DNA of 64,000 bases from an uncultured Candidatus Saccharibacteria bacterium. Its GTDB lineage: Bacteria; Patescibacteriota; Minisyncoccia; Phycocordibacterales; CAZNKJ01. The stretch lies in the NCBI GenBank assembly GCA_964574145.1, contig CAZNKJ010000001.1, positions 16,852-80,851 of the forward strand, in the 5' to 3' direction. Position numbers and translations under genes: made by a program. The notes beneath the pieces are model-generated. The model did no database searches. It was given only the letters and a program-made list of their open reading frames with translations, and had not been told where the DNA came from. Numbering within the stretch: the stretch's first letter is position 1; every line of letters starts with the position of its first letter. Of this stretch, positions 3,633-60,065 are shown piece after piece.

Positions 3633-3772
3633 AAATATATGTGATACATGTATCTCATACCATCTTTGTAATTTTATTGATGGATTGTCTCTTAATCAAT
3701 CGGAGATACAATCTATATTATCACGAAGGTTGTTTGACTCAGTCGTACTTATTAACGTATTTTGTAGCTTAC

Positions 3773-4201: not shown

Positions 4202-4288
4202 AAGTGGATAGATATCAAGTAATAGTTAACAATATATTTTTTAAGTATACCATGACCTTTTTAAGACCAAATATAAACGTAGTAGGTT

Positions 4289-4825: not shown

Positions 4826-4849
4826 GTCTTAAAAAAGTTAAGTTTAGTT

Positions 4850-8529: not shown

Positions 8530-8534
8530 CGTAT

Positions 8535-21582: not shown

Positions 21583-21681
21583 AACCAAATACCTTTCTTT
21601 GTAAGTAAGGTGGGTGTACTCTTTTCGTCTACTTCTAGTAGAACACATCTGCACGTATTATGCAACCCCTGTGGTGTTTAC

Positions 21682-21713
21682 CATTGTGCGACATTGTAAA
21701 ATGTCGCACAATG
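21682..21713. promoter_or_regulatory. Perfect 14-bp inverted repeat (CATTGTGCGACATT-GTAA-AATGTCGCACAATG) abutting the xerC start; putative operator or 5' mRNA hairpin
   Basis: Direct read of 14 + 4 + 14 nt with a perfect reverse complement. It ends 8 nt before the xerC ATG, within a 67-bp divergent intergenic region. Confidence 0.4.
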
Positions 21714-21721
21714 TAGAATGT

Positions 21722-29160: not shown

Positions 29161-29180
29161 TGATTTGATTGTACTTATAT

Positions 29181-33600: not shown

Positions 33601-33816
33601 GAAGCTTCTACTGCACGCTTGCGCCCGATCGCCCTCACAACCTTAACGACAGTTATTGGAGTCATTCCACTCATTTTTGTTTCTGAGTTATGGGCACCGT
33701 TGGCTTACGCTATTATGTTTGGGCTCTCGTTCTCTGTCATTATTACTTTGTTTTTAATCCCTGTTATCTATAATCGTTGGCCGGGTGGGGGGCGGGAGGA
33801 CAAAAAAATAAGTTAA
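30685..33816 (+). CDS. RND-family efflux transporter permease (AcrB/HAE1-like)
   Basis: 1043 aa with 12 TM segments in two blocks and two large extracytoplasmic loops; typical motifs ALILAIGILVDSAIVVVE and GFIALSGIVVNNSIILID. Confidence 0.9.
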   Translation: MFLTNFMYNIWSFFIHKSRFSYLFLITLVGFGFFSVLTIPKESAPEVQIPVGTVTVTFPGASALDVEKLVTNKIEEGLEGGLDNLDKIVSSSQEGVSVVTAKFNADADIDVSIQKLREEVDKIKPELPTNSNDPIISEINFVDQPIITIAISGNLLPQEFVQLAREVKSRILSIQGISKVNISGMRDREVQVIVNKDALNTFDLRLVDVVGAIRLTNSALPVGSITVDDVKYNIEFAGDIREPSEIADIAVLSSAGEPVYVRDFASVFDGLTKVTTLSRVSVNGSPSQSALSLNVFKNTGGDITKLTKEVRGAFENMQKEGEILSDTDVLVVFDRGKLLKKDLTNLSRSGLQTIVLVMVILFLTIGWREALIAGSAIPLSFLIAFIGLFNFGNTLNFVSLFALILAIGILVDSAIVVVEGIHTHMKKGVGKKEASLLAIKEFHSPLTSGTLTTVAVFAPLFLISGITGKFIASIPFTIIFVLLASLLVALGLVPLVASVVLRRRTIGAVEKWQEVFITKLQIWYKYYLLRILGYRNREYIFMGSLLIVFTLTLMFPLVGLVKVEFFGQENVDWVVVGVEKTQGTTLGDSDFEVRKVEELLYNKPYIESFLTTVGRSSAFIGDGGVSRDSKLANIFITLRPKRNLTSTEIVNDLRRTLSSIRTSSIKVSQPNSGPPVGAPISISFLGDNLEELDRVVSNAAGLLTTIPGTTEVSTSARNDNTEFVITVDKARATELGLNSNILAQTLRASVYGAKATTIKNFSEDIDVVVKLNLNSAYRNPHDTSRTTIDTIRQMGIGTASGPVLLGSIVNISLKKSSAVIQHERRKRAVVLSGQLVEGANTREVVAQFRSRLNEIKVPDGISVIVGGEDKEESQSFRDMFWALVLGIILMFTILVLQFNSYRYAIYVLMIVPFSLIGIMFGLALTGKALSFTSIMGFIALSGIVVNNSIILIDKMNNLRKKNPEKPYKELVVEASTARLRPIALTTLTTVIGVIPLIFVSELWAPLAYAIMFGLSFSVIITLFLIPVIYNRWPGGGREDKKIS

Positions 33817-40218: not shown

Positions 40219-40620
40219 CTATTGAGTAAATACGGAGTCGATATTAGAAAGGTCTTCGTCAATATTACCTAAGTCTGTTGTTCCTAAATCTTTTTCAATG
40301 GAGCTTACTTCATCAGAAGTTCCTTGAGTTTTCAGGCTCTTTACTACAGGATCTGGTTCTGTTGCGACGTTATTTTGTTGTGGATTTACAATGTCTGCTT
40401 TTTTAGAGTAGTATTGATTGCCCCAGAAATATATTCCTCCTAAAGCAAGTACAGAAATAATAATAATAATTCCAGCAACTTGACCTATTGTGTGTTTTTC
40501 TGGCTCAGGGTTGTTAGAAGTTTCTGTTGGAGTTTCTTCTGTCGTGTCGACATTAGACACATTTTCGTTTTCATTATTTTGCTTCTCGTTTTGTTCTTCT
40601 TGTGTGTTCATATAAGTCAA
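40219..40620 (-). CDS. Hypothetical single-TM protein, acidic and N-rich
   Basis: 133 aa with one TM (IIIISVLALGGIYFW). Confidence 0.35.
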   Translation of the reverse strand: MTYMNTQEEQNEKQNNENENVSNVDTTEETPTETSNNPEPEKHTIGQVAGIIIIISVLALGGIYFWGNQYYSKKADIVNPQQNNVATEPDPVVKSLKTQGTSDEVSSIEKDLGTTDLGNIDEDLSNIDSVFTQ

Positions 40621-40665
40621 TATATTTATTTCTAATAGAGATTATAATTTTATTATTACCTCTCC

Positions 40666-41493
40666 TTAATTTCTAGAATCGGAATTATTATTGGTAGTAT
40701 TTTCATCTCTATTATCCGACCTAATCTCACGTAGAGCCCTTACTGTTTCTATGAGAGTTTCGCGCGCTTTTAGAATTCCGTTTTTTGCGATAGTGGCCAT
40801 CTCGCGCGCTTTTTGGAAGGAATCTTGTGGGTTTTCGGTTTCAATTGCTGAAAACGCTTCATCAAGGAATTGTTTAGTCGCTTCTCGAGCAGTTTCAAGC
40901 TCATTTTGCGATTTTTCTAGAAGATCGCGCTCCTCAGTCATATCTTTTCCCTGAGCTTCAAGTTTTTCAATACGAGATTGTACACGTTTACCGATTTTGT
41001 AAATTCTATTTATTGCCATTTCAAATCTGTTCCCAAATCGTTTAAGATGTTTTTTTATTCGCTCTTTTGATTTATTCCCAAGCTTTATTTCTCGTTTTTG
41101 AAATTTTTCACGCAGACCACCTTTCCTTTTTTCAATTTTTTCAATTCGCTCTTTCATATTTTCACGCAACTCAAGTCGTTTTTTATCTAATCGCGCGCGA
41201 ATTTTATCTCGTCTGGAAGAATACTCCTCTCTTGTGTTGTCAAAACGTTCTTTTAATCTTTGTTCTTTTTCATCTATTTCCTTACGGATTTTATTATGCC
41301 GCCTGGGTGTTACGGCAGGGGCTAATTTTTTAGCCTTAATATTCTCTCCCTCAACTTCTTTTGCGGTAGATGCTGATGAGTCATCGGTGTGGGCAAGAGC
41401 AGGATTTGCGATAAAAAACAGAGCAAAGGCGAATATTAACAATAGTATAGAGTTCTTAACGTTTAAGATTTCTTTAAAATGAGTTATTTTCAT
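40666..41493 (-). CDS. Secreted K/R/E-rich coiled-coil hypothetical protein
   Basis: Signal peptide MKITHFKEILNVKNSILLLIFAFALFFIANPALA, followed by highly charged heptad-like repeats. Confidence 0.4.
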   Translation of the reverse strand: MKITHFKEILNVKNSILLLIFAFALFFIANPALAHTDDSSASTAKEVEGENIKAKKLAPAVTPRRHNKIRKEIDEKEQRLKERFDNTREEYSSRRDKIRARLDKKRLELRENMKERIEKIEKRKGGLREKFQKREIKLGNKSKERIKKHLKRFGNRFEMAINRIYKIGKRVQSRIEKLEAQGKDMTEERDLLEKSQNELETAREATKQFLDEAFSAIETENPQDSFQKAREMATIAKNGILKARETLIETVRALREIRSDNRDENTTNNNSDSRN

Positions 41494-44419: not shown

Positions 44420-44495
44420 ATTGAAGCTAATATAACATGGTCTGTTGAGAAGTTAGGTAGTTAGTCGTGAGTTTCTTGATATAATTAAGACACTT

Positions 44496-46247
44496 ATGCT
44501 TATTGGAGCAAAACAACTCAAGCGTTTTCTTGTGGATGCTGGTTTGGTATCTAACACTCAATTTGAGACAGCTGAAAAAGAAGCGAAAAAACATGACACA
44601 AGTGTGAGTGAAGAACTGGTGTCAAAAGGAGAACTTTCTGAGAACGACCTGAGGAGAGTTGAAGCTTATGTGTTGGGGATTCCTTTTGTTAGTTTAAAAG
44701 ATCGCAAGATAGAGTTTGAAGTACTTTCTCTTGTGCCAGAACCAATAGCTAGGAATAATAATATTATTCCTTTTAAAAAAGGGGATGGGGTGCTTGAGGT
44801 AGCGATGCTTAACACTGATGATTTAGAATCCATTGATTTCATAAAGAAAAAAACAGGGCTAAAGATCTTACCTAGATTAACCGACACTGAGTCTATAAAG
44901 CATGCGCTAATTCAGTATCAGAAAACTCTAAAAGATGAATTTGGAGATTTGATTGAGAGGGAGGCAGGAGAGCTTAAAGAAATTCCTGAAGGTGAGGATA
45001 AGGAAATGTCTGAAGGCGATCTAAAAAAGCTCGCAGAAGATGTCCCTGTTGTGCGCATTGTTGATGCCCTCCTTAAGCATGCAATTATACAAAATGCTTC
45101 TGATATTCACATAGAACCGATGGAAAAAGAAGTTTTGGTAAGATACCGTATAGATGGAATATTGCATGACGCAATGACTCTTCCAAAGTCTGCTTCATCT
45201 TCAGTTAGCGCTAGAGTAAAAGTGCTTGCAAATTTAAAACTAGATGAGAAACGTCTTCCTCAGGACGGTCGGTTTAAAGTTGAGTCAAATAGTGAAAAAG
45301 TTTCTTTTCGTGTATCAGTTTTGCCAACATATTTTGGAGAGAAAATAGTAATGAGGCTTTTAAAAGAGAGTGTCTCTGGTTTTACACTAGAGAGTCTGGG
45401 TTTCCATGGGGAAGGGCTAGAGCGAATTTATCGAGCAACGAGGAAAAAAACCGGATTGATTTTAACTACAGGTCCGACTGGGTCAGGAAAGACAACAACT
45501 CTTTATACAATGCTTGATATTTTAAATACTCCAGAAGTAAATATTTCAACAATTGAAGATCCTATTGAGTATCAGATGCCCCGGATAAACCAAACACAGG
45601 TGCGTTCTGATATAGGGTTTTCTTTTGCGCAAGGCCTACGTTCTTTAGTTAGACAAGACCCAGATATTGTAATGGTCGGTGAGATTCGAGACACTGAGAC
45701 AGCCTCTTTGGCTATTAATGCTGCTCTTACAGGTCATCTGGTTTTTTCAACACTTCATACGAACTCTTCTGCTGGAGCCATTCCACGTCTTTTAGATATG
45801 GAAGCAGAAACTTTTCTTTTGGTATCTACTCTTGAGGTTATTATAGGTCAACGTCTTGTGCGACAATTATGCAAAGGGAAGATAGAACACAAACTTTCTG
45901 ATGAGGAAATTAAAGTGCTTGGAGAGTCTGTAGATTTAGATGCCGTTCTGAAGACTCTAAAAGAAGAAAAAATTATTTCAAAAACTGCAGAATGGGAAGA
46001 TGTCTCCTTTTATAAGCCAAAAGAGACAGCAGAGTGCAAAGATGGTTTCAAGGGACGGATTGGTATTCATGAAGTTCTTGATGTAACGCAGTCTATTCGT
46101 AATTTAGTTATGAGTGGAGCTACTACAAAAAAGATAGAAGAACAGGCAAAAAAAGAGGGAATGTTGACTATGATTGAGGACGGTATTTACAAAGCAGCAA
46201 AAGGGATCACTTCTATTGAAGAAGTTTTGCGAGTAGTGTCCGAATAA
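44496..46247 (+). CDS. pilB: Type IV pilus / type II secretion assembly ATPase (GspE/PilB family)
   Basis: N-terminal GSPII_E_N-like domain, Walker A GPTGSGKTTTL, Asp-box and His-box (LVFSTLHTNSSAGAI), and tetra-Cys-like region. Confidence 0.9.
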   Translation: MLIGAKQLKRFLVDAGLVSNTQFETAEKEAKKHDTSVSEELVSKGELSENDLRRVEAYVLGIPFVSLKDRKIEFEVLSLVPEPIARNNNIIPFKKGDGVLEVAMLNTDDLESIDFIKKKTGLKILPRLTDTESIKHALIQYQKTLKDEFGDLIEREAGELKEIPEGEDKEMSEGDLKKLAEDVPVVRIVDALLKHAIIQNASDIHIEPMEKEVLVRYRIDGILHDAMTLPKSASSSVSARVKVLANLKLDEKRLPQDGRFKVESNSEKVSFRVSVLPTYFGEKIVMRLLKESVSGFTLESLGFHGEGLERIYRATRKKTGLILTTGPTGSGKTTTLYTMLDILNTPEVNISTIEDPIEYQMPRINQTQVRSDIGFSFAQGLRSLVRQDPDIVMVGEIRDTETASLAINAALTGHLVFSTLHTNSSAGAIPRLLDMEAETFLLVSTLEVIIGQRLVRQLCKGKIEHKLSDEEIKVLGESVDLDAVLKTLKEEKIISKTAEWEDVSFYKPKETAECKDGFKGRIGIHEVLDVTQSIRNLVMSGATTKKIEEQAKKEGMLTMIEDGIYKAAKGITSIEEVLRVVSE

Positions 46248-46272
46248 GAGTGGTAATAAACTTTTTATTTTT

Positions 46273-47493
46273 ATGAAAAAATTTATATATACGGCAACAA
46301 ACACTAATGGAGAAGCTTATACACGTACAGTTGAGGCGAAAGATAGATTTGAAATATATGATTTGGTCCGAAAGGAAAACGGGACGATTGTTTCTATTAA
46401 AAAAGCTGGAAGCTTTTTTGGAGGTGGTTTTTTTAGCAAAGCGGATGCTTTTTTGGGGACAGTAAAAGAGGCAGAAAAAATAATCTTTGCAAGGAATGTT
46501 TCTACTATGATCAAGTCTGGGTTACCGCTGTCTAGGACCCTAGATGTTATGATACGCCAGACAAAAAATAAAAAATTTAAAGAAATCTTACGAGCTATTA
46601 TTAAGGATATAAATGCAGGAGAATCCTTATATACTGCTCTTGGGAAATTTCCAAAAGTATTTTCTCCGCTTTTTGTATCTATGGTTAAGGCTGGTGAAGA
46701 AAGCGGAAAGCTCTCAGAAACTTTTTTAGTAATTGCTCACCAAATGGAAGAGGCTTATTCTCTAAAACGTAAAATACGTGGGGCACTTATATATCCATCG
46801 ATTATATTAATAGCGATGTTTATTATAGGGATACTAATGATGATGTTTGTGGTACCAACGCTTTCGTCAACTTTTGAAGAACTCGGAGCAGACCTTCCGA
46901 AGTCTACCCAAGTAATTATCTTTATAAGTGGTTTTCTTGTAAATAACACATTGATATCGTTGCTTAGTATTGTTGCTGTGTTTTTTGGTTTAATTGTGGC
47001 GTTACGCACAAAACGTGGTAAACGTATGGTAGATTTTATTATCTTGCGAGTGCCAGTTATTTCGGAGTTGGTTAAGGAGACTAACTCTGCTCGTACAGCT
47101 CGGACACTTTCCTCTCTATTATCTGCGGGAGTTGGAATTGTTTCTTCTTTTTCTATTACACAAGATGTTTTACAAAATTCTTACTATAAGGATGTTCTAA
47201 AAACCGCAAAAACTAACGTAGAAAAAGGTAGCCCCATTGCCCAAGTTTTTGTGGAAAATACTGATATATATCCAGTAATGGTGGGCGATATGATTTCAGT
47301 AGGTGAAGAGACGGGACAACTTTCGCAAGTTCTTATGGAGGTAGCAGATTTTTACGAGGAGGATGTTTCTCAGAGGACAAAAGATCTTTCCACAATTATA
47401 GAGCCTTTTCTTATGATAATAATAGGTACAGTGGTTGGTTTTTTTGCTATTTCAATGATTACTCCTATTTATTCAATTTCGGGAAGTATTTAA
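46273..47493 (+). CDS. pilC: Type IV pilus platform protein (GspF/PilC family)
   Basis: 406 aa with a duplicated T2SS_F-domain architecture and 3-4 TM segments. Confidence 0.85.
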   Translation: MKKFIYTATNTNGEAYTRTVEAKDRFEIYDLVRKENGTIVSIKKAGSFFGGGFFSKADAFLGTVKEAEKIIFARNVSTMIKSGLPLSRTLDVMIRQTKNKKFKEILRAIIKDINAGESLYTALGKFPKVFSPLFVSMVKAGEESGKLSETFLVIAHQMEEAYSLKRKIRGALIYPSIILIAMFIIGILMMMFVVPTLSSTFEELGADLPKSTQVIIFISGFLVNNTLISLLSIVAVFFGLIVALRTKRGKRMVDFIILRVPVISELVKETNSARTARTLSSLLSAGVGIVSSFSITQDVLQNSYYKDVLKTAKTNVEKGSPIAQVFVENTDIYPVMVGDMISVGEETGQLSQVLMEVADFYEEDVSQRTKDLSTIIEPFLMIIIGTVVGFFAISMITPIYSISGSI

Positions 47494-47497
47494 GAGA

Positions 47498-49249
47498 ATG
47501 ACTGGAACATATAAACACAGTCAAGGTACGTCGTTTATAGATGTGTTAATAAGCATAGCTCTTTTAGCTCTTATATTTTGGGGAATATTTGGAGTATTTC
47601 AATTGGCTTTAGAACTTGTCGGTAACTCTCGTGCTAAGGCTGGTGCTCTCGCACTCGCTAATGAGCGAATGGAATTTCTGAGGTCTCTCTCTTATGATTC
47701 AGTGGGGACTGTTGGTGGGATACCTTCTGGCAATATAGCTCAAACGGAGACAGTAGTTCTTAATAGTCTATCTTATACACGACGTACTTTTATACAGTTT
47801 GTGGATGCTCCAGAAGATGGTATAGGGGCTCTTGACTCAAATGGAATCACTGCAGATTATAAAGTTGCAAAAGTCGAGCTTAGTTGGAATACCCGTAGCG
47901 GTATACGACAATTCTCATTAATATCAACGATTGTCCCAAAAAATATTGAAACGGTGGCTGGTGGAGGAACCCTACTTTTAAACACCATTGATGCTTTTGG
48001 TCTTCCTGTAGCAAATGCTTTAGTGCGGGTACAAAATTTTGCCACCACTCCAACAATTGATGTTACTACTTTCAGCAATATAAACGGGCAGGTGATTTTT
48101 CCAGGTAGTCCTGCTGCCGGGAGCTATCAAGTTACGGTTACAAAAAATGGTTATAGTACTGCGCAAACATATGATGTAACTACAGGGAACCCCAATCCAG
48201 TTCCTCGACATTTTACTATAGTTGAGGGTGCCACCACCGCGGCAACTTTTGCTATTGATAGTTTGGTAAGCAAAACGATACGTACGTTAGAGCCTATAAA
48301 GGATGCTGAATTAGAAGATCTGTTTAATAACCAAAGTTTAATTGAGACACTCTCTCAAACAGTTGTCGTTGGAGGCGGAGTCACTCTTCTTGATTCCGGG
48401 TCAGGGTACCCTGCAAGTGGTAGTGTGATTTCAAATAGCGTGACCCCTGCGTATCTTAATCAGTGGACGCTTCTGTCTTGGAATGACACAGTACCAGTAG
48501 GAACGGCTATTTTATACCAGGTGTATTTTGAGGTGAGCCCGGGGGTGTGGCAGTCTATACCAGATAGTGATCTTCCTGGTAATACTGCAGGATTTTCGAC
48601 TTCAGGTGTTGATCTAACTTCGTTAGCAACTAGTACGTATAGTTCTGTAAAACTTTACGGTTCACTTTCAACAAATAATGCTTCCTCAACTTCTTCAATA
48701 GAAGACTGGAAACTTGATTATAAGGTTGGCCCCACCCCTATCTCTAATGTGGCGTTTTCAATGAGCGGAGCAAAGACGATTGGCACAGACGATGCAGGTA
48801 ATCCTATTTATAAATATGAACAAGTTCTTTCAACAGATAGTAATGGAATATACGCAACCTCAACTCTTGAGTGGGATGTTTATAATATTACTATCGATGG
48901 CACAACAGAAGGTTTTGATATTTCTGAATCTTGTGATCCACAACCAAGGTCGCTTTCGCCAGGCGGTAGTATAGACACAGATCTTTTTTTGTTACCACAC
49001 ACAACAAATTCGCTTCTTGTGGTAGTTCTTGATGGTATGGGGGCAATTATTCCAGGGGCGAGCGTTAACCCTGTATTAGGGTTGTTTAACCAAACAAAAT
49101 CTACCTCGTTATGTGGACAGGTGTTCTTTCCGTCACTTTCTAACGGGACATATAATGTAACAATATCCGCAAGCGGTTATCAGACTGAAATAACTACTGC
49201 AGATGTAAGTGGGACGACTCAAATGTTGATAACACTTATTACACCATAG
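47498..49249 (+). CDS. Large pilin-like protein (putative minor pilin or tip adhesin) with a non-canonical prepilin N-terminus
   Basis: The N-terminus QGTSFIDVLISIALLALIFWGIFGVFQLAL is a hydrophobic helix resembling a class-III signal. A ~550-aa beta-rich T/S/G-rich domain follows. It lies between pilC and a canonical pilin. Confidence 0.45.
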   Translation: MTGTYKHSQGTSFIDVLISIALLALIFWGIFGVFQLALELVGNSRAKAGALALANERMEFLRSLSYDSVGTVGGIPSGNIAQTETVVLNSLSYTRRTFIQFVDAPEDGIGALDSNGITADYKVAKVELSWNTRSGIRQFSLISTIVPKNIETVAGGGTLLLNTIDAFGLPVANALVRVQNFATTPTIDVTTFSNINGQVIFPGSPAAGSYQVTVTKNGYSTAQTYDVTTGNPNPVPRHFTIVEGATTAATFAIDSLVSKTIRTLEPIKDAELEDLFNNQSLIETLSQTVVVGGGVTLLDSGSGYPASGSVISNSVTPAYLNQWTLLSWNDTVPVGTAILYQVYFEVSPGVWQSIPDSDLPGNTAGFSTSGVDLTSLATSTYSSVKLYGSLSTNNASSTSSIEDWKLDYKVGPTPISNVAFSMSGAKTIGTDDAGNPIYKYEQVLSTDSNGIYATSTLEWDVYNITIDGTTEGFDISESCDPQPRSLSPGGSIDTDLFLLPHTTNSLLVVVLDGMGAIIPGASVNPVLGLFNQTKSTSLCGQVFFPSLSNGTYNVTISASGYQTEITTADVSGTTQMLITLITP

Positions 49250-49328
49250 TCATATGTATAAGAATAAAAAATCTACCAATCCGCGTTTTTTACTTTTCTT
49301 TGTAAAAGAAAGGATGTCTTCTATAAGT

Positions 49329-49931
49329 ATGGTTAAAAAAACAGCATTTGGGTTTACTTTGATAGAAACAGTCGTTACTGTTGGTATTTTTGCTTTAGTA
49401 ATGCTCACTATCACTTCTTCAGTTCTCTATTTTTATCGAGTGAACGCAAATGCGATTGAGCAGGCTTTTGCTATTAATAGTTCTCGCAGAGGGATTGAAT
49501 TTACTGTACGTGATATTCGCGAAATAACCTACGCTGACAATGGAGCATATCCAGTCATGTCTATTGGAAGCACCACACTCTCTTTTTATAGTGATATAGA
49601 TCGGGACAGCAGTGTTGAGTTAGTTCGTTATTTTTTAAATGGTGACATATTGCAAAAAGGGGTAACAAAAGCAACGGGCGATCCGGCCGTATACAACACC
49701 CTCAACGAAGTGGTGTCTGTTATTTCAACTGATGTGCGAAATGTTCCAAACGCTATTCCTATTTTTAGATATTTTGACAATACAGGAACGGAAGTCACTA
49801 ATTTTACAAAAGTGACTGATGTTGCTTTTGTAAACATTACGCTTATTATTAATATAAACCCATCACGTCTACCAGAAGATTTTACACTTCAGTCTAGTGC
49901 GACACTACGTAACCTCAAAATAAATCTATGA
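49329..49931 (+). CDS. Type IV pilin / pseudopilin with a canonical prepilin motif
   Basis: MVKKTAFG|FTLIETVVTVGIFALVML has the G-FTLIE cleavage/methylation site. The start is assigned to the internal ATG, giving an 8-aa leader. Confidence 0.75.
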   Translation: MVKKTAFGFTLIETVVTVGIFALVMLTITSSVLYFYRVNANAIEQAFAINSSRRGIEFTVRDIREITYADNGAYPVMSIGSTTLSFYSDIDRDSSVELVRYFLNGDILQKGVTKATGDPAVYNTLNEVVSVISTDVRNVPNAIPIFRYFDNTGTEVTNFTKVTDVAFVNITLIININPSRLPEDFTLQSSATLRNLKINL

Positions 49932-51358
49932 GTACATACCCTTTAGTACATAATAATGCGAGGGGGTATTTAATGTTGTTAGTTCTTGTATTTGGAGCAG
50001 TTTTTCTTGCGGTGACCTCTTCTCTCACTGGTTTTATTTTTTCACAACAGAAATTACAACTTGCAAAGGAGAATCGTGAAAATGCGCTTCAAATTTCCGA
50101 AGCAGGATTAGATTATTATAAATGGTTTCTAGCGCATTTTCCTGACGATCTCCAGAATGGTACTGGTTTACCTGGTCCTTATGTGGTTCCTTACAATGAT
50201 CCTGAGGGTGGGGAGTTGGGAAAATTTTCACTTGAGGTTTCAGGAAATAGCAAATGCAATGCTGTTTCTTCAATTGACATAACATCAACGGGTTGGACCA
50301 ACGCAGACCCATCTTTTACCCAGACTGTTTTTGGGCGTTATGCACGTCCTTCTGTCGCAGAGTATGCATACATTATAAATAGTAATGTATGGGCGGGATC
50401 AGACCGTAATATCGTAGGGCCTTATCATTCTAATGGAGGGGTACGGATGGATGGCACAAGTAATTCAACAGTAACGAGTGCAATTGATCAATGGCTATGT
50501 ACCTCGAGTTTTGGCTGTAGTCCAAATCAAAATCAGCCGGGAGTGTTTGGTAGTGGTAACAGTGAGTTGTGGACATACCCAGTTCCACAAATTGATTTTG
50601 CTGGACTTACAGTTGATTTAATAACTATGAAATCACAAGCACAGACGGGAGGTCTTTATTTTGGTCCTTCTGGTCGTGGATATAGAATTGTTTTTAAAAA
50701 TGACGGCACAATTGATGTATATAGAGTCAACAGTACAGCTTGGGTGTGGGGGTATTCATCTGAAAATGGATGGCAACGTGATTACCATCGAATAACGAGT
50801 GAAAGTTTCCAGGGAAATTTCACCCCACCCGCCAGCTGTCAGCTCGTTTTTGTAGAGGATGATTTATGGATTGAGGGGAATGTTAGTAACAAGATTACTG
50901 TAGCCTCAGCTGATGTTACTAGTCCTAATATTGACACTACTATTATATTGAATAATGACATAACTTATACAACTACTGATGGATCTGTAGGATTAACAGC
51001 AATTGCTGAAAAAGATGTTCTTATTCCACTTGTTTCTCCTGACAACATGACTCTTCGCGGCATTTTCATGGCTCAAAAAGGTCACTTTGGTCGTAATTAT
51101 TACACCACTTCAGGGTCAAGGGATGTTCCTAATTGGCTTAATAATTATGTTAAACAAAGCAGTCTTACTATGACAGGCACAATAGTCTCCAGTGGTCGTG
51201 TAGGTACTAAGTGGTCGTGTGGATGGAGTGGTTATTTTTGTTCTGGATATGCAACTCGTTATAATTTCTATGATCGAAATCTTGCGAACGAACCTCCTCC
51301 TTTAACGCCGTTTGTCTCAACAGATTTTCGTTTTATTGAGTGGAGGGAGGGAATGTAG
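49928..51358 (+). CDS. PilX-like minor pilin / pilus assembly protein
   Basis: ARGYLMLLVLVFGAVFLAVTSSL...ALQISEAGLDY resembles the PilX_N architecture. An ATGA overlap with the upstream pilin indicates coupling. Confidence 0.5.
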   Translation: MSTYPLVHNNARGYLMLLVLVFGAVFLAVTSSLTGFIFSQQKLQLAKENRENALQISEAGLDYYKWFLAHFPDDLQNGTGLPGPYVVPYNDPEGGELGKFSLEVSGNSKCNAVSSIDITSTGWTNADPSFTQTVFGRYARPSVAEYAYIINSNVWAGSDRNIVGPYHSNGGVRMDGTSNSTVTSAIDQWLCTSSFGCSPNQNQPGVFGSGNSELWTYPVPQIDFAGLTVDLITMKSQAQTGGLYFGPSGRGYRIVFKNDGTIDVYRVNSTAWVWGYSSENGWQRDYHRITSESFQGNFTPPASCQLVFVEDDLWIEGNVSNKITVASADVTSPNIDTTIILNNDITYTTTDGSVGLTAIAEKDVLIPLVSPDNMTLRGIFMAQKGHFGRNYYTTSGSRDVPNWLNNYVKQSSLTMTGTIVSSGRVGTKWSCGWSGYFCSGYATRYNFYDRNLANEPPPLTPFVSTDFRFIEWREGM

Positions 51359-51392
51359 ACGGTACTTAGAAGCTCTGTGTTACAATGCTTTT

Positions 51393-53729: not shown

Positions 53730-53772
53730 TGTTAAATGATACCAAAAACCGCAAAGAAATAAATTACTTCGA

Positions 53773-56358: not shown

Positions 56359-57864
56359 ATGTCATATAATGAGAACACTTCTCATTATATGAACATGCGA
56401 TACATTTGGATCTATTTTTTTGTTGGAGGATTCGGAATAGGAGTGCTTTGGCGCTCCTTTTTTTATTTGGGAGTGGGGTTTTCTGTTTTTGTTATCGTTC
56501 TTGCTGTAGCTTTATTTCTTCTCTATTTGGGATCTCGTCACGCGTTACATTTTTTTTCGGCGCTTGTTCTTCTAGGTGTCGCTTTTGGTGTTATTCGTTT
56601 TGACATCGCTGATTTTTCGCAAGGAAGTTTTTATTTTAATGAACGAGTTGGGGTGGAGAGTTCATTTGAAGCTGTTGTTATTGATGAGCCTGATTTTCGA
56701 GATACTAATACAAAGCTCATAGTTCTTGCGGGAGGTGCTGCAGTTACGAGTAAAGAAAAAATATTAATCACGACGGAACGATATCCGCGGTATTCATATG
56801 GTGATCGTCTGGAAATTGAGGGTGTGCTTAAAAAACCAATTGCATTTGCAGGCAACGATGGGAAGGTGTTTGATTACCCCGCGTATCTAGGGAAAGATGG
56901 TATCTATTACACAATGTTTCCTAGGTCTATTAAGAAAATAGGAGAAGGTGGTGGGAATGTTGTAAAACGAACTCTTTTTAGATTAAAATCCGCATTCCTT
57001 GAACGTATCGGGCGGGTTATACCTGAGCCGCAGGCCTCTCTTTTGGGCGGTTTGGTGGTTGGAGCGAAGAGGTCTTTAGGGGGTGATTTGCTTGATAAGT
57101 TTCGTCGCGCTGGAATTATACATATTGTGGTGCTCTCCGGCTATAACGTTACTATTGTTGCGGAGTTTATAATGCGTACACTTTCATTTTTACCGAGTGT
57201 TTTGACTCGGTCGTTTGGAGTTGGTTCCATTGCTCTTTTTGCGGTGATGACCGGTGCGGGGGCAACGGTGGTGCGAGCTTCTATTATGGCGATATTGGTA
57301 GTTATAGCTCGTGCGACAGGACGAACGTATCAAATAACACATGCGTTAATTGTCGCAGGGTTTTTTATGGTTCTTCAGAATCCAAAAATCATTGCTTTTG
57401 ATTCGTCTTTTCAGCTTTCTTTTATGGCAACTGTAGGACTTATTTATCTTGCGCCTAAACTAGAGTCATATTTTGGGTGGGTGCCAACTAAATGGCAGTT
57501 ACGAGAATTTGCTACCGCTACTATTGCAACTCAGATTTTTGTTCTTCCTATGTTGCTCTATAAAATGGGTGCGTTGAGCATTGTCGCATTTCCAGTCAAC
57601 CTTCTCGTCTTACCAGTTATTCCCATCACTATGCTCCTGGGCTTTTTTACTGGAGTAGCTGGTTTTGTGAATACATTTTTTGCACTTCCTTTTTCATTTG
57701 TTACAACGGTTTTACTTTCTTATCAGTTATTTGTAGTTGATATTTTTGCTCGTTTGCCGTTTGCTTCAGTTACTATTGAACACTTTTCTCTTTTTGCGAC
57801 GGTGTCTACATATGTCTTGTATGGAGTAATTTTATTTTGGTTACATAAAAATATAACTAAATAA
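56359..57864 (+). CDS. comEC: ComEC/Rec2-family DNA-uptake channel protein (membrane 'competence' domain only; no MBL domain)
   Basis: Multiple TM segments, an N-terminal DUF4131-like region and the Competence-domain block GLLGGLVVGAKRSLGGDLLDKFRRAGIIHIVVLSGYNV. Confidence 0.75.
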   Translation: MSYNENTSHYMNMRYIWIYFFVGGFGIGVLWRSFFYLGVGFSVFVIVLAVALFLLYLGSRHALHFFSALVLLGVAFGVIRFDIADFSQGSFYFNERVGVESSFEAVVIDEPDFRDTNTKLIVLAGGAAVTSKEKILITTERYPRYSYGDRLEIEGVLKKPIAFAGNDGKVFDYPAYLGKDGIYYTMFPRSIKKIGEGGGNVVKRTLFRLKSAFLERIGRVIPEPQASLLGGLVVGAKRSLGGDLLDKFRRAGIIHIVVLSGYNVTIVAEFIMRTLSFLPSVLTRSFGVGSIALFAVMTGAGATVVRASIMAILVVIARATGRTYQITHALIVAGFFMVLQNPKIIAFDSSFQLSFMATVGLIYLAPKLESYFGWVPTKWQLREFATATIATQIFVLPMLLYKMGALSIVAFPVNLLVLPVIPITMLLGFFTGVAGFVNTFFALPFSFVTTVLLSYQLFVVDIFARLPFASVTIEHFSLFATVSTYVLYGVILFWLHKNITK

Positions 57865-57944
57865 TTTTTTTAAATTGAGAGAACCGAGATTGATTTTGAT
57901 TGGTGTTTATAGGTAAATAGAATCGTTTTGTCTTGTTAGGTAAT

Positions 57945-58553
57945 TTACTTTGCGTTTTCAAAGCGTTTTTCTATAACTCCCCAGTTTAAATTCTTGAAGA
58001 ATGCTTCAATATATTGTCTTTTCTCTGCAGGCGTGTAGTCCATCATGTATGCGTGTTCCCACATATCCATAGCAAGAATAATAGGAAGCCCTGCAAGCTG
58101 TCCTAGCTCATGGTCTCCAACCCAAGAGGTATGTAGAGTCTTGCCCCGCGGATCAAAATAAAGAATAGCCCACCCAATACCTCGTGTACCACCCCCGACC
58201 ATTTTAAAATGTTCTATTCCCGCCTCAAGACTTCCATATTTTTCTGAAAAAGCATTTGCTAAAGAGGAAATCTCTTCTATTTTTTGGGCTTTCTTTTCCC
58301 ACTGTTCAAAATAGTATTCATGCATACGCATTCCGTTGAACTCAAATCCAAGCCGTCGGCGTGTTTCTGTTTCTGCGTATGCGAATTTTCCGGGACCGGA
58401 ATCTTTCATCTCATGCAACTGCTCGCGGAGCAAATTAACGTGTTTAACATAGCCACCATATAGCCCCAAGTGGATCTCTACTTGCTTTGAAGAAATATCT
58501 TTTAGTTCCTGCAAGTTAAATTTTTTTTCTTTATACTCCATATTGATTTTCAT
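57945..58553 (-). CDS. sodA: Fe/Mn superoxide dismutase
   Basis: The C-terminal DMWEHAYMMDY motif, plus the N-terminal and middle His ligands (EIHLG, MRMHEYYF). The ORF-track N-terminus probably over-extends, so an internal ATG is preferred. Confidence 0.75.
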   Translation of the reverse strand: MKINMEYKEKKFNLQELKDISSKQVEIHLGLYGGYVKHVNLLREQLHEMKDSGPGKFAYAETETRRRLGFEFNGMRMHEYYFEQWEKKAQKIEEISSLANAFSEKYGSLEAGIEHFKMVGGGTRGIGWAILYFDPRGKTLHTSWVGDHELGQLAGLPIILAMDMWEHAYMMDYTPAEKRQYIEAFFKNLNWGVIEKRFENAK

Positions 58554-58600
58554 ACTAAGCAGTTTTTTGCTAAAAAAGAGGCTACTCAGCTTCATTTTAC

Positions 58601-58837
58601 ATGATACCATGTGGAGATATGATGCGTATTATTCTTTCATTGGTTGTTGTTATGGCTGTTGTTATTCTAGCTCTCGTATATTTAAACGGACATTCTATTT
58701 CAGCACCAAAAAATTTAAATGATGCCACAAAAACAGAGCGTTGTGCAAAATTTAGACAAGTAGACGAAGAAGACAATGGTGTATATTCGCTCGGGTACGG
58801 TGGACGTATACGTCAGCTTATTCATGGTTGTTTTTAA
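58601..58837 (+). CDS. Small hypothetical membrane protein
   Basis: 78 aa with one TM (IILSLVVVMAVVILALVYL), followed by a strong terminator. Confidence 0.35.
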   Translation: MIPCGDMMRIILSLVVVMAVVILALVYLNGHSISAPKNLNDATKTERCAKFRQVDEEDNGVYSLGYGGRIRQLIHGCF

Positions 58838-58880
58838 AAACGCGACTACCTGTGTGGTGTCGCGTTTTATTTTTTTTGTA
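58836..58880. terminator. Rho-independent terminator (AAAAACGCGAC-loop-GTCGCGTTTTATTTTTTTT)
   Basis: 10-bp stem plus T-tract. Confidence 0.6.
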
Positions 58881-58887
58881 CCACAGT

Positions 58888-59067
58888 TTAATTTGTCGCA
58901 CGCACAAATGCTCTTAAGGCAGCCATTCCTATTCGTCTAAATTGTTCAAGTGTATCGGCGGCTGTGGCCTTGATAGCGAGATCTTTAAGGAGGGAGATTG
59001 TTTCAGTTCTTTCTACTTCACCCTTCGTTCGTTGCCCAGTCATTCCTTGGGTGGTTTGTTTACTCAT
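58888..59067 (-). CDS. Small hypothetical protein (~59 aa from the MSKQ start)
   Basis: The ORF-track N-terminus is hydrophobic junk, so the internal ATG is more plausible. No motif recognised. Confidence 0.3.
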   Translation of the reverse strand: MSKQTTQGMTGQRTKGEVERTETISLLKDLAIKATAADTLEQFRRIGMAALRAFVRATN

Positions 59068-59207
59068 GAAATAACTCCTCTCCAAATAACAAACAAAAAT
59101 CTTTATCAACTCTATTTTGAAATATATCATAAGAAATTATGATTCACAATCTTTAGGTCATTTCTTTGTTTGTAGTGTCGTAATTGATGTGAGGGTATAC
59201 TTTTTCT

Positions 59208-60065
59208 ATGTTTGGTAATAAAGAAAAAATGAAGCTTGGGGTTCTTTTTTTTCTTTTTCTAACAGCAATAGTTATTTGGACGGTACTTCTGAATAATGAA
59301 AAAAGATTACTAACAGTGGCATTTTTAGATGTAGGTCAGGGTGATGCTGTTTATATAGAGGCACCTAATGGAAATCAGATGCTTGTTGACAGCGGTTCTG
59401 GCCCTGTTGTTTTGAGAGAGCTTGGAAAAGTAATGCCTTTGTATGATCGCTCTATTGACGTGTTGGTAGCCACGCATCCAGACAAGGATCATATAGGGGG
59501 ACTTCCAGATGTATTGAGACATTATAAAGTTAATTTATTATTGCGTTCAGGTGCCAAGAATGTTACAGGTGTATTTAAAGAGTTGAATTTACTTTCGCAA
59601 AAAGAAAGTATCCAAAAAATTTTAGCGCGAAGGGGAATGGTTATTCGGTTTGGGGGAGGAGTATATGCTGAAATTCTTTCTCCATTTCGTATAGTTCCGT
59701 TCGCTGATTCAAATGATGCCTCTGTTGTTATTCGTCTGGTTTATGGAGGCACGGAGTTCATGCTTACTGGTGACGCTCCACAAAAAATTGAAAGAAATCT
59801 TGTTTCAAAATATGGGAAACATCTTAGGAGTAACGTATTAAAAGCAGGCCATCATGGTTCAAAAACCTCTTCAGCAATATCTTTTATTAAATCTGTCTCT
59901 CCTAATTACGTGGTGATTTCTGCAGGTAAAAACAATAGATATGGGCATCCACATAAGGAGACATTAGCTCGTCTGGCGCAATTTGATGCATCAGTTTTGA
60001 ATACAGCGAAAGAGGGAACAATAATATTTACTTCTGACGGAGAGGCAGTTTTGTATAAAAAGTAA
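59208..60065 (+). CDS. Membrane-anchored MBL-fold metallo-hydrolase resembling the ComEC C-terminal beta-lactamase-like domain
   Basis: An N-terminal TM, then LTVAFLDVGQGDAVYIE...VLVATHPDKDHIGG...KAGHHGSKTSS...GKNNRYGHPH, the pattern of ComEC C-terminal domains. Confidence 0.7.
   Translation: MFGNKEKMKLGVLFFLFLTAIVIWTVLLNNEKRLLTVAFLDVGQGDAVYIEAPNGNQMLVDSGSGPVVLRELGKVMPLYDRSIDVLVATHPDKDHIGGLPDVLRHYKVNLLLRSGAKNVTGVFKELNLLSQKESIQKILARRGMVIRFGGGVYAEILSPFRIVPFADSNDASVVIRLVYGGTEFMLTGDAPQKIERNLVSKYGKHLRSNVLKAGHHGSKTSSAISFIKSVSPNYVVISAGKNNRYGHPHKETLARLAQFDASVLNTAKEGTIIFTSDGEAVLYKK

What the first reader, a model, noticed from the sequence alone, without database searches (positions are those of the whole stretch)
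44496..51358. Minimal type IV pilus operon (PilB-PilC-large pilin-like-pilin-PilX-like) lacking PilT/PilM-Q/PilD in cis, flowing directly into tpiA-pgk
The operon is an assembly ATPase, a platform protein, a 583-aa pilin-like protein with a non-canonical prepilin N-terminus (QGTSFIDV...), a canonical G|FTLIE pilin and a PilX-like protein. The last three are translationally coupled. No retraction ATPase, alignment complex, secretin or prepilin peptidase is encoded nearby. That is consistent with a monoderm competence-type or adhesive pilus. The PilX-like stop is only 34 nt before tpiA, which suggests co-transcription with glycolysis genes. The same window carries comM, recJ and a ComEC pair, giving a coherent DNA-uptake theme.
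Basis: partly seen in the sequence, partly recalled or inferred. Interest (0 to 1): 0.55.

Follow-up and report, generated by a model that had tools for sequence, protein, structure and literature searches.

The report
Pilus motor plus tip-complex operon
This is a real and highly conserved gene cluster of an ultra-small (CPR/Patescibacteria) bacterium that encodes the motor of a type IV pilus and three proteins that most likely form the pilus tip. It belongs to a known kind of system and is probably not transcribed together with the neighbouring glycolysis genes.

Summary
PilB (T2SSE, 2.5e-122) and PilC (2x T2SSF) are unambiguous. All three downstream proteins have pilin-type N-termini.

- The 583-aa protein has G|TSFID; relatives carry D or E at +5, and 9/35 hit N_methyl. 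A PilV/GspI/ComGE-like module is followed by about 430 aa of Ig-like beta-sandwich "stalk".
- The 225-aa protein has a canonical G|FTLIE; 24/24 relatives hit N_methyl.
- The 476-aa protein has no acidic +5 residue and has a PilX_N-like helix. Its only significant structural match is Thermus ComZ, the beta-solenoid tip pilin (Foldseek E 4e-8).

I read this as the extension motor plus a GspI-J-K-type priming/tip complex, not a complete "minimal pilus". No major pilin, PilT, PilD, PilMNO or secretin lies in the 64-kb window, and only one stray pilin-like ORF (about 10 kb away) turned up in 80 related loci.

The organism is a Paceibacteria-type CPR bacterium. The order pilB-pilC-583-225-476 | tpiA-pgk | recJ-rnhA-comEC recurs in nearly all 80 relatives.

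Co-transcription with tpiA is not supported. tpiA carries its own extended -10 promoter 6-9 nt before its ATG in 76% of relatives (background 1.5%), and the 476-tpiA gap varies up to 7 kb.

Verdict: new member of a known kind, moderate interest.

The parts
44477..44485 (+). Extended -10 promoter-like motif TGATATAAT, 10 nt upstream of the pilB ATG. Likely start of the pil transcription unit.
   Evidence: Read directly. Most of the 25 relatives' upstream regions printed show TGnTAnnnT motifs 10-60 nt upstream of pilB (judged by eye, not counted). Consensus match only; not experimentally shown.
44496..46247 (+). pilB: type IV pilus extension ATPase (583 aa). N-terminal MshEN domain, Walker A GPTGSGKT at residue 326.
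   Evidence: Pfam T2SSE 2.5e-122 and MshEN 3e-14. TIGR02538 PilB 1.7e-163, 545 bits, below the 676-bit cutoff. Median 67% identity across 61 related loci. Walker A.
46273..47493 (+). pilC: polytopic platform protein (406 aa).
   Evidence: Pfam T2SSF 7.4e-62, two stretches. GspF and PilC NCBIfam models 1e-80 to 1e-92, below cutoffs.
47498..49249 (+). 583-aa modular minor pilin. It has a non-canonical class III signal (QG|TSFID, Asp at +5) and a PilV/GspI/ComGE-like pilin module (about residues 1-150). About 430 aa of four beta-sandwich domains follow, two of them CarboxypepD_reg/transthyretin-like. Putative adhesin-bearing tip subunit.
   Evidence: Alignment A2 shows the +5 residue is D or E, with several relatives carrying a canonical G|FSLIE. 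N_methyl in 9/35 relatives and CarboxypepD_reg in 35/35. The N-terminal module hits ComGE in 16/25, PilV in 9/25 and GspI in 4/25, all sub-threshold. AF2 pLDDT 88.8, helix 13-63 plus a 4-strand sheet, then beta domains. Foldseek top hits are Gram-positive pilin/MSCRAMM Ig-like stalks: TIE, SdrD, BcpA, RrgB.
49254..49931 (+). Canonical prepilin (G|FTLIE), most likely a minor pilin in the GspJ/PilW/ComGF position. The start is ambiguous: 49254 gives 225 aa with a 33-aa leader, 49314 gives 205 aa with a 13-aa leader, and 49329 is also possible.
   Evidence: N_methyl 21.4 bits against a cutoff of 21.2; 24/24 relatives hit N_methyl. Relatives have 7-20-aa leaders ending in [KR]G. Sub-threshold hits: GspJ 20/24, ComGE 19/24, GspI 19/24, ComGF 17/24, against major-pilin models ComGC/GspG 8/24. 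The globular part has no PDB or Pfam sequence relative.
49928..51358 (+). 476-aa PilX/GspK-type capping pilin. It lacks an acidic +5 residue (RG|YLMLL), has a PilX_N-like helix (…AKENRE..QISEAGLDYYKW) and a large beta-rich (solenoid-like) domain. Structurally ComZ-like. Its ATG overlaps the stop of the preceding gene (ATGA).
   Evidence: Alignment A1. PilX_N in 5/31 relatives, best 1.9e-5. AF2 pLDDT 79, pTM 0.75, helix 11-70. Foldseek against PDB: 6QVI ComZ at E 4e-8, prob 1.0, and no other hit below E 0.4. No sequence-level PDB hit. 1120 representative clusters at E<=1e-3. Median 53% identity in 80/80 related loci.
51378..51386 (+). Extended -10 motif TGTTACAAT, 6 nt upstream of the tpiA ATG (51393). 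Predicted own, leaderless promoter of tpiA-pgk, marking the 3' boundary of the pil operon.
   Evidence: Sequence. TGnTAnnnT at 6-9 nt upstream of the tpiA start in 58/76 related loci against a 1.5% background; 1-7% for the internal pil genes and 3% for pgk.

Best explanation
The locus is one operon, pilB-pilC-583-225-476, of a Paceibacteria-type CPR bacterium. It encodes the extension motor of a type IV pilus (PilB ATPase and PilC platform) and a three-subunit minor-pilin 'priming/tip' complex. This is not a complete pilus system.

By analogy with GspI-GspJ-GspK, PilV-PilW-PilX and ComGE-GF-GG, which share the same gene order, I infer the following steps.
1. The three proteins insert into the membrane through their N-terminal helices.
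2. They assemble on PilC into a heterotrimer.
3. The heterotrimer nucleates polymerisation of a major pilin that is encoded elsewhere.
4. The complex ends up at the distal tip of the pilus.

Inferred roles of the subunits:
- The 476-aa protein lacks the +5 acidic residue and carries a ComZ-like beta-solenoid. It is the terminal cap or 'plug'.
- The 225-aa protein is the connecting subunit.
- The 583-aa protein has a PilV/GspI-like module and a roughly 430-aa Ig-like stalk. It is the least conserved of the three and presents an adhesive or ligand-binding arm.

A tip complex this bulky (the three precursors total about 137 kDa) would fit a cell envelope without a secretin.

Shown here: gene identities, pilin-type N-termini, fold resemblance, operon compactness and conservation. 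Inferred: complex formation, tip location and ligand. I favour host or surface attachment through the 583-aa arm, with DNA binding by the ComZ-like cap as the main alternative. tpiA-pgk is a separate transcription unit that is leaderless and driven by its own promoter.
For: - PilB and PilC HMM assignments.
- Class-III-type N-termini: 225-aa family 24/24 N_methyl; 583-aa family has D/E at +5 and 9/35 N_methyl; 476-aa family has no acidic +5 and 5/31 PilX_N.
- Subunit typing: the 583-aa N-terminal module best matches ComGE/PilV/GspI. The 225-aa protein matches GspJ/ComGE/GspI/ComGF more often than major-pilin models. The only significant structural match of the 476-aa protein is ComZ. ComZ is a GspK-like tip pilin with an inserted beta-solenoid that binds its neighbouring pilin PilA2 (PMC6561018). 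The same PilX-plus-solenoid architecture is reported for cyanobacterial PilX as a 'tip plug' (bioRxiv 10.64898/2026.02.12.705559).
- Stoichiometric design: intergenic gaps of 2-9 nt (medians) across 62-78 related loci, and an ATGA overlap of 225/476 in the window.
- No other pilin-like ORF in the window, and only one stray pilin in 80 x 21-kb related loci. The major pilin is therefore elsewhere.
- Conservation ranking: PilB 67% > 476 53% > PilC 49% > 225 45% > 583 42%. This fits a structural cap plus a faster-evolving adhesive arm.
- Precedent in cultured CPR: Saccharibacteria T4P loci have large PilX minor pilins with accessory domains and non-canonical signal peptides, and PilX2 is needed for host binding (PMC11623550).
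- tpiA promoter evidence.
Against: - No experiment and no multimer model supports the heterotrimer.
- All subunit-type HMM matches are below curated cutoffs and are largely driven by the N-terminal helix.
Its GspJ/PilW-like nature rests on gene position and weak HMM hits, so it could still be the major pilin.
- The ComZ match has low global TM (0.27-0.31) and no detectable sequence homology. The insertion topology could only be read from the DSSP string, not from coordinates.
- The most conserved segment of the 476-aa protein (residues 150-220, YHSNGG[IV]RMDG…C-x5-C) is the least confidently modelled and is not explained by a pure 'plug' role.
- The rest of the genome could not be inspected. 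PilD, PilT, PilM and a major pilin are assumed from literature on other CPR.
Confidence: 0.72

Rival explanations
1. First reader's version. This is a self-contained minimal adhesive or competence pilus in which the 225-aa G|FTLIE protein is the major (shaft) pilin. The 583-aa and 476-aa proteins are accessory pilins, and the operon is co-transcribed with tpiA-pgk.
For: The 225-aa protein is the only fully canonical prepilin in the window. Essentially no other pilin gene lies within about 10 kb in 80 relatives. No terminator is predicted in the 34-nt gap to tpiA in the window.
Against: The gene sits between two bulky pilin-like genes with 2-4-nt spacing or overlap and has no promoter of its own (1-7% ext -10 at internal genes). 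Major pilins are normally expressed in large excess from their own promoter; this rests on general knowledge and on PMC11623550. HMM leanings are to GspJ/ComGE/ComGF (17-20 of 24) rather than ComGC/GspG (8 of 24). The mature size of about 190 aa is large for a CPR major pilin. tpiA has its own conserved leaderless promoter, and the gap is variable.
Confidence: 0.13
2. Same tip-complex architecture, but the pilus is dedicated to DNA capture. The ComZ-like 476-aa cap, with the adjacent 225-aa pilin, would be a tip DNA receptor. It would feed DNA to the ComEC channel encoded 5 kb downstream, with RecJ, RNase H and ComM acting on the imported DNA, for transformation or nucleotide scavenging.
For: ComZ is the only significant structural match, and ComZ binds DNA and its neighbouring pilin (PMC6561018). 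The pil operon lies within 5-8 kb of recJ-rnhA-comEC in most of 80 relatives. comM is also in the window. CPR com genes are conserved, and ComEC-dependent natural transformation is shown in Saccharibacteria (PMC10633639). The 476-aa protein is more conserved than PilC, which fits an invariant ligand.
Against: The 476-aa protein is acidic (pI 5.05) and the 583-aa protein more so (pI 4.3). There is no sequence homology to ComZ, so its DNA-binding lysines cannot be mapped. The conserved synteny also includes nusA, ppa, tpiA, pgk and a HIT gene, so linkage is not specific. In cyanobacteria, solenoid PilX proteins occur in both competence and motility pili. In TM7x, T4P-2 pilin mutants keep wild-type competence.
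Confidence: 0.25
3. A type II secretion-like or Com-like short pseudopilus rather than a surface-exposed pilus. PilB/PilC plus the GspI-J-K-like trio would drive a piston that secretes proteins or pulls substrates through the wall.
For: PilB and PilC score almost as well on the GspE and GspF models as on PilB and PilC. The minor-pilin trio and its order are those of T2SS and Com systems.
Against: A cap plus a 430-aa Ig-like stalk makes sense for an exposed tip, not for a periplasmic piston. There is no secretin or GspC/L/M in the window. ComGA and ComGB models score far below cutoff (250 vs 300; 147 vs 240). Pili are seen on CPR cells by cryo-ET (PMC11623550).
Confidence: 0.07

Closest known systems
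Thermus thermophilus competence pilin locus (pilA1-pilA2-pilA3-comZ-pilA4); ComZ tip pilin (PDB 6QVI)
   Same: The 476-aa protein has a GspK/PilX-type pilin domain without the usual prepilin features plus a large beta-rich solenoid-like domain. It is encoded directly next to a smaller canonical pilin. ComZ is its only significant Foldseek hit (E 4e-8). Both are inferred to sit at the tip because of their bulk.
   Different: No detectable sequence homology and global TM of only about 0.3. Thermus is diderm, and ComZ must pass the PilQ secretin. The Thermus locus includes the major pilin PilA4 and lacks pilB/pilC. DNA binding is shown for ComZ and untested here. The CPR protein is acidic and has a unique invariant YHSNGG[IV]RMDG / C-x5-C segment.
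Core minor-pilin tip complexes: T2SS GspI-GspJ-GspK, T4aP (FimU)-PilV-PilW-PilX, Gram-positive ComGE-ComGF-ComGG
   Same: Three consecutive pilin-like genes in I-J-K order. The last lacks Glu5 and has a PilX_N-like helix. The genes are tightly spaced, which suggests a stoichiometric complex. Weak HMM matches go to exactly these families.
   Different: No GspH/FimU/ComGD-like fourth subunit and no major pilin in the operon. The I/V-like subunit carries a 430-aa multi-domain extension. All HMM scores are below family cutoffs.
Saccharibacteria (TM7x) T4P-1 / T4P-2 loci with large PilX1 / PilX2 minor pilins (PMC11623550)
   Same: CPR lineage. The pilB/pilC motor genes are clustered with pilins. 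There are large minor pilins with C-terminal accessory domains and non-canonical signal peptides. A host-binding role was shown for PilX2.
   Different: Different class (Paceibacteria). The accessory folds differ: jelly-roll and beta-propeller in TM7x, ComZ-like solenoid and Ig-like stalk here. The TM7x loci also carry pilM/N/O, and locus 1 carries pilT and pilD, all absent from this window.
Cyanobacterial PilX families with inserted beta-solenoid (bioRxiv 10.64898/2026.02.12.705559)
   Same: A PilX lacking Glu5 with a bulky beta-solenoid, proposed as a 'tip plug' replacing PilY1. It is part of a core priming complex with PilV and PilW.
   Different: Diderm hosts. The cyanobacterial sets are linked to competence versus EPS/motility functions by genetics.
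Modular type IV pilins of Streptococcus sanguinis (PilB vWA, PilC lectin)
   Same: A pilin module with a functional module grafted on at the C-terminus, in a monoderm. This is the concept that fits the 583-aa protein.
   Different: The grafted domains are unrelated (vWA or lectin versus transthyretin-like/Ig-like repeats).

Membership tests
Type IV filament (T4P/T2SS/Com) assembly systems | PilB/GspE-family secretion ATPase | tested here: met
   T2SSE 2.5e-122, Walker A GPTGSGKT. The TIGR02538 score of 545 is below its equivalog cutoff of 676, so family-level membership holds but the protein is not a curated equivalog.
Type IV filament (T4P/T2SS/Com) assembly systems | PilC/GspF platform protein with two T2SSF domains | tested here: met
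   PF00482 7.4e-62, two stretches.
Type IV filament (T4P/T2SS/Com) assembly systems | Pilins with class III signal: Gly at -1, hydrophobic helix, Glu at +5 | tested here: met
   The 225-aa protein has G|FTLIE with N_methyl at the cutoff, and 24/24 relatives hit. The 583-aa protein has G|TSFID, with D/E at +5 across the family.
Type IV filament (T4P/T2SS/Com) assembly systems | Prepilin peptidase (PilD, Peptidase_A24) | not testable with these tools
   None among the window ORFs scanned.
Type IV filament (T4P/T2SS/Com) assembly systems | Major pilin | tested here: not met
   No further class-III-signal ORF in the 64-kb window, and only 1 stray candidate in 80 related 21-kb loci. Presumably encoded elsewhere, or the 225-aa protein fills the role (rival 1).
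Canonical diderm T4aP (PilMNOPQ, PilT) | Secretin PilQ, alignment complex PilMNOP, retraction ATPase PilT | tested here: not met
   tblastn with PilB finds no paralogue in the window. No Secretin or PilM/N/O Pfam hits. This holds for the window only. PilT and PilM are reported as widespread in other CPR phyla (PMC11623550).
GspI-J-K / PilV-W-X / ComGE-GF-GG core minor pilin complex | Terminal subunit lacking Glu5 with a PilX_N/GspK-type N-terminus | tested here: met
   In the 476-aa family the residue after Gly is Y/S/F and the +5 position is hydrophobic in all 31 sequences. PilX_N is detected in 5/31 (best 1.9e-5), though not in the window protein itself.
GspI-J-K / PilV-W-X / ComGE-GF-GG core minor pilin complex | I/V-type and J/W-type partner pilins encoded adjacently, in that order | tested here: inconclusive
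   The 583-aa N-terminal module hits ComGE in 16/25, PilV in 9/25 and GspI in 4/25. The 225-aa protein hits GspJ in 20/24 and ComGF in 17/24, but also ComGE and GspI in 19/24. All are sub-threshold and mostly in the N-terminal helix.
GspI-J-K / PilV-W-X / ComGE-GF-GG core minor pilin complex | Physical heterotrimer that primes assembly | not testable with these tools
ComZ-like beta-solenoid tip pilins | [quoted passage not shown] | tested here: inconclusive
   Foldseek 6QVI chains A-C at E 4e-8 to 5e-7, prob 1.0, over about 556 columns, but TM 0.27-0.31. The DSSP order is helix 11-70, four strands 85-139, a long beta region 243-447 and a final strand 468-474. This is compatible with such an insertion, but the coordinates could not be inspected.
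ComZ-like beta-solenoid tip pilins | Sequence homology to ComZ | tested here: not met
   A profile of 31 family members against all PDB sequences gave no ComZ hit at E<=10.
ComZ-like beta-solenoid tip pilins | DNA binding | not testable with these tools
   Needs EMSA or a similar assay. The acidic pI of 5.05 is mildly unfavourable.
Gram-positive competence pilus ComGA-GG | ComGA / ComGB equivalogs | tested here: not met
   ComGA 250.6 bits against a cutoff of 300, covering only residues 191-456. ComGB 146.7 against 240. The PilB/GspE and PilC/GspF models score much higher.
NCBIfam 'CPR Pam pilus system' | Match to CPR_Pam_pilin models | tested here: not met
   No Pam model hit for any of the five window proteins at E<=1. 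Only 4/24 relatives of the 225-aa protein hit CPR_Pam_pilin_C weakly (1e-3).

The most novel reading that the evidence does not exclude
The most conserved, Pfam-less member of the operon is the 476-aa ComZ-like cap family: 1120 representative clusters, 50-61% identity to the window protein across the 80 related Paceibacteria-type loci, and an invariant YHSNGG[IV]RMDG…C-x5-C segment that AF2 cannot place. Under this reading it is not just a plug. It would be the ligand-engaging or catalytic head of a Paceibacteria-wide pilus-tip machine. That machine would be a receptor that captures extracellular or host DNA (or attacks a conserved host-envelope polymer) and hands it to the syntenic RecJ-RNase H-ComEC module. 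This would give these nucleotide-auxotrophic ultra-small bacteria a dedicated pilus-based nucleic-acid acquisition device.
Probability: 0.2. Interest if true: 0.65.

Novelty: new member of a known kind. Interest (0 to 1): 0.38.

Why it matters
Type IV pili are thought to be central to how CPR/Patescibacteria attach to hosts and take up DNA. Functional work so far exists only for Saccharibacteria.

This locus shows three things about the much larger Paceibacteria (Parcubacteria) radiation:
- It keeps a strictly conserved five-gene module of motor plus a three-protein tip complex.
- The cap belongs structurally with Thermus ComZ and the cyanobacterial solenoid-PilX proteins.
- The PilV-like subunit carries a long Ig-like arm.

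This gives concrete candidates (the 476-aa and 583-aa families, currently 'hypothetical') for the host- or DNA-recognition step. It also corrects the annotation ('carboxypeptidase regulatory-like domain protein').

The side finding on promoters is useful for operon calling in these genomes. Extended -10 promoters lie 6-9 nt before start codons (tpiA, recJ, rnhA), and Shine-Dalgarno motifs are almost absent.

None of this overturns current understanding.

Tried and rejected
- **Retrieving the rest of the genome.** I wanted to look for pilD, pilT, pilM and a major pilin. The look-up of encoding contigs returned only 8.6-14.5-kb Logan contigs, not the 107-kb contig, so I abandoned this.
- **Sequence-level link of the 476-aa family to ComZ or any solved structure.** None found.
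- **Sequence-level link of the 583-aa pilin module to PDB.** None found.
- **The 225-aa family against PDB.** Only the N-terminal helix matches pilins such as geopilin, PilA and MshA.
- **Phage tailspike or depolymerase-like reading of the 476-aa beta domain.** No BFVD hit below E 0.18, and PDB beta-helix hits (pectinase, FHA, hemolysin) are non-significant. Rejected for lack of support.
- **Gram-positive ComG system and 'CPR Pam pilus' membership.** Rejected on HMM scores.
- **Names or organisms for distant family members.** None carried.
- **Sigma-70 and terminator consensus scan of the region.** Counts were below shuffled expectation and uninformative. The comparative motif analysis was what resolved the tpiA promoter.
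- **pilB promoter analysis with the same 25-nt window.** This gave only 12%, because pilB has a longer 5' UTR. Visual inspection of the printed upstream regions shows the motif 10-60 nt upstream in most of them, but I did not quantify it rigorously.
- **Rfam scan of the window.** Only four tRNAs.

Full report
**1. Observation**

The five + strand ORFs are exactly as reported.
- 44496-46247 is PilB: T2SSE 2.5e-122 plus MshEN, TIGR02538 1.7e-163, Walker A at residue 326.
- 46273-47493 is PilC, with two T2SSF stretches.
- The next three ORFs (47498-49249, 49254-49931, 49928-51358) start with QG|TSFIDV…, FG|FTLIE… and RG|YLMLLV…

A six-frame scan shows that the first two of these three are the only ORFs in the 64-kb window with a Gly-x4-[D/E]-hydrophobic-helix signature.

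tpiA (ATG 51393; TIM 3.3e-69) and pgk follow after a 34-nt gap. recJ, an RNase H gene, a split comEC (DUF4131+Competence at 56359-57864; Lactamase_B at 59208-60065) and comM (13889-15442) are all confirmed.

The window contains no second PilB/PilC-like gene. None of the other ORFs hits Peptidase_A24, PilM/N/O or a secretin; they are housekeeping genes, a T4SS-like cluster or unknowns.

**2. Host and distribution**

Homologues of the 583-aa and 476-aa proteins carry names such as Kaiserbacteria, Paceibacterota, Parcubacteria, Nomurabacteria and 'Patescibacteria group'. The window therefore comes from a Paceibacteria-type CPR bacterium (about 37% GC).

The 476-aa family was found in 455 species-representative genomes by two peptide patterns. 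It forms 1120 clusters at 50% identity. No Pfam or NCBIfam model covers it.

**3. The three pilin-like proteins**

*583-aa protein.*
- In alignment A2 the residue five positions after the conserved Gly is always D or E. Several relatives have a canonical G|FSLIE, and 9/35 reach N_methyl.
- AF2 (pLDDT 88.8) gives a helix at 13-63, a small 4-stranded sheet up to about residue 145, then four beta-sandwich domains.
- The isolated N-terminal module hits ComGE (16/25), PilV (9/25) and GspI (4/25), all sub-threshold.
- The whole model resembles Ig-like stalks of Gram-positive pilins and MSCRAMMs.
- It is thus a modular PilV/GspI-type minor pilin with a roughly 430-aa arm.

*225-aa protein.*
- All 24 relatives tested hit N_methyl.
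- Leaders in relatives are 7-20 aa and end in [KR]G. The window protein may therefore start at 49314 or 49329 rather than 49254.
- Its globular part has no detectable relatives in PDB or Pfam.
- Sub-threshold NCBIfam hits favour minor-pilin families (GspJ 20/24, ComGE 19/24, GspI 19/24, ComGF 17/24) over major-pilin models (8/24).

*476-aa protein.*
- The family never has an acidic +5 residue. It has the …AKENRE..QIAEAGLDYYKW helix typical of PilX_N, detected in 5/31 relatives.
- AF2 (pLDDT 79, pTM 0.75) gives helix 11-70, four strands, then a long beta-rich region and a terminal strand.
- Foldseek against PDB gives only one significant match, Thermus thermophilus ComZ (E 4e-8, prob 1.0). Everything else is at E>0.4.
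- ComZ is a GspK-like pilin with an inserted beta-solenoid. It is argued to cap the competence pilus and binds DNA and the adjacent pilin PilA2 (PMC6561018).
- Cyanobacterial PilX proteins share this architecture and are proposed as tip plugs.
- There is no sequence-level link to ComZ, and the global TM is low (about 0.3). This is a structural resemblance, not demonstrated membership.

**4. Operon structure and comparative genomics**

In 80 related loci the order (ppa, nusA on the - strand) | pilB pilC 583 225 476 | tpiA pgk | HIT(-) | recJ rnhA comEC is nearly invariant.

| Junction | Median gap |
|---|---|
| pilB-pilC | 9.5 nt |
| pilC-583 | 7 nt |
| 583-225 | 3 nt |
| 225-476 | 2 nt |
| 476-tpiA | 124 nt (15/76 over 500 nt, up to 7.3 kb) |

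Several relatives show obvious hairpin terminators in the 476-tpiA gap (output).

An extended -10 motif (TGnTAnnnT) lies 6-9 nt upstream of the tpiA start in 58/76 loci. The background is 1.5%, the internal pil genes show 1-7% and pgk 3%. The window has TGTTACAAT at 51378-51386, then 6 nt, then the ATG. tpiA-pgk is therefore predicted to be its own, leaderless, transcription unit. Read-through from the pil operon cannot be excluded in this genome, because no terminator is predicted in the 34-nt gap, but it is not what the comparative data point to.

pilB has TGATATAAT 10 nt upstream of its ATG. Most of the relatives' upstream regions printed show similar motifs 10-60 nt upstream.

Median identities to the window proteins are PilB 67, 476-aa 53, RecJ 50, PilC 49, Pgk 48, 225-aa 45, TpiA 44 and 583-aa 42%. 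The cap is under stronger constraint than the platform protein. The arm-bearing subunit is the most variable.

The 80 x 21-kb loci contain essentially no additional pilin gene.

**5. Interpretation**

The best-supported reading is a motor (PilB/PilC) plus a GspI-J-K / PilV-W-X / ComGE-GF-GG-type priming and tip complex. It shares the gene order of those systems, with a ComZ-like cap and an Ig-like adhesive arm. The major pilin, the prepilin peptidase and any retraction or alignment components are encoded elsewhere.

CPR literature supports the plausibility of this. The machinery genes pilB, pilT, pilM and pilC are widespread across Patescibacteria, while pilins diverge. In TM7x, large PilX minor pilins with accessory domains and non-canonical signal peptides exist, and PilX2 is needed for efficient host binding (PMC11623550).

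Whether the tip binds host surface or DNA is unresolved.
- For DNA: the ComZ resemblance, the nearby recJ-rnhA-comEC, and ComEC-dependent competence in Saccharibacteria (PMC10633639).
- Against DNA: the acidic pI of 5.05 and 4.3, the non-specific nature of the synteny, and solenoid-PilX proteins serving both competence and motility pili in cyanobacteria.

I commit to the following. Priming and capping by the 476-aa protein is inferred from fold and the lack of E5. Attachment through the 583-aa arm is inferred from fold and lower conservation. DNA reception is the main alternative.

**6. Novelty**

T4P in CPR, modular minor pilins and solenoid-bearing PilX/ComZ caps are all known. What is new is the recognition that two large 'hypothetical' or 'carboxypeptidase regulatory-like' protein families of Paceibacteria are the V-type and X-type subunits of a conserved tip complex, and the definition of the operon boundary. 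I found no open-access paper linking ComZ to CPR. This makes it a new member of a known kind.

**7. Caveats**

- Subunit typing rests on sub-threshold HMM hits and one Foldseek match.
- The 225-aa protein was not modelled.
- No multimer prediction was available.
- The rest of the genome was unavailable.
- Promoter inference is by motif conservation only.

Noticed in passing
window 815-9524 (- strand): A type IV secretion-like cluster. It has a VirB4/CD1110-family ATPase split into two ORFs (2985-3632 N-terminal part; 1126-2976, 8e-111) and a PrgI-family protein (3773-4201). It also has three large unknown proteins (748, 478 and 329 aa; the last with a TSP3 repeat). It resembles the monoderm-type T4SS described for Patescibacteria (PMC12102498). 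This window therefore carries both of the CPR surface machines.
   Followed up: partly
window 56359-60065: ComEC is split into two genes: DUF4131+Competence at 56359-57864 and the metallo-beta-lactamase domain at 59208-60065. They are separated by an oppositely oriented Fe/Mn superoxide dismutase gene (57945-58610) and a small ORF. The N-terminal part is syntenic in most relatives.
   Followed up: partly
related loci L001-L080 and window 51378-51392, 53740-53772: Extended -10 motifs (TGnTAnnnT) sit 6-9 nt upstream of start codons of operon-initial genes: tpiA 76%, recJ 60%, rnhA 43% (background 1.5%). Shine-Dalgarno-like motifs are rare (2-17%) at all genes examined. This suggests widespread leaderless translation in these Paceibacteria.
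   Followed up: partly
window 50375-50590 (residues 150-220 of the 476-aa protein): The most conserved stretch of the family (NVWAG..R.I.G.YHSNGG[IV]RMDG … W.C…F.C … G.FG, many invariant columns) is the region AF2 models with the lowest confidence (pLDDT below 50). It might be a partner interface, a metal or disulfide site, or an active site.
   Followed up: no
window 29169-33816 (+): A HlyD-type membrane-fusion protein (509 aa) and an AcrB/RND transporter (1043 aa, 4e-184) in a lineage generally regarded as lacking an outer membrane.
   Followed up: no
window 21614-22627 (+), tRNAs at 25945, 27344, 29090, 35714: A tyrosine recombinase (Phage_integrase 1.8e-43; XerC/D-like or an integrase). 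Its ORF as called overlaps the start of the divergent 308-aa unknown membrane protein (20728-21654). Four tRNA genes lie nearby. I did not examine whether this marks an integrated element.
   Followed up: no
NCBIfam NF058581 (CPR_Pam_pilin_C), seen: NCBIfam contains models for a 'CPR Pam pilus system'. 4/24 relatives of the 225-aa pilin hit its pilin model weakly (1e-3). The phrase 'Pam pilus' occurs in no paper of the searched library. The relation of that system to this operon is unknown.
   Followed up: partly
window 40219-41493 (- strand): Two unknown proteins with no family match. One is a 133-aa acidic single-pass membrane protein. The other is a 275-aa secreted, highly charged coiled-coil-like protein (K/R/E-rich).
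   Followed up: no
related loci L011, L013, L044-L046, L055, L056, L058, L063, L073, L074, L079: Some relatives have 1-7-kb insertions between pilB and pilC or between the 476-aa gene and tpiA. The insertions contain no pilin-like ORFs. Their content was not examined.
   Followed up: no
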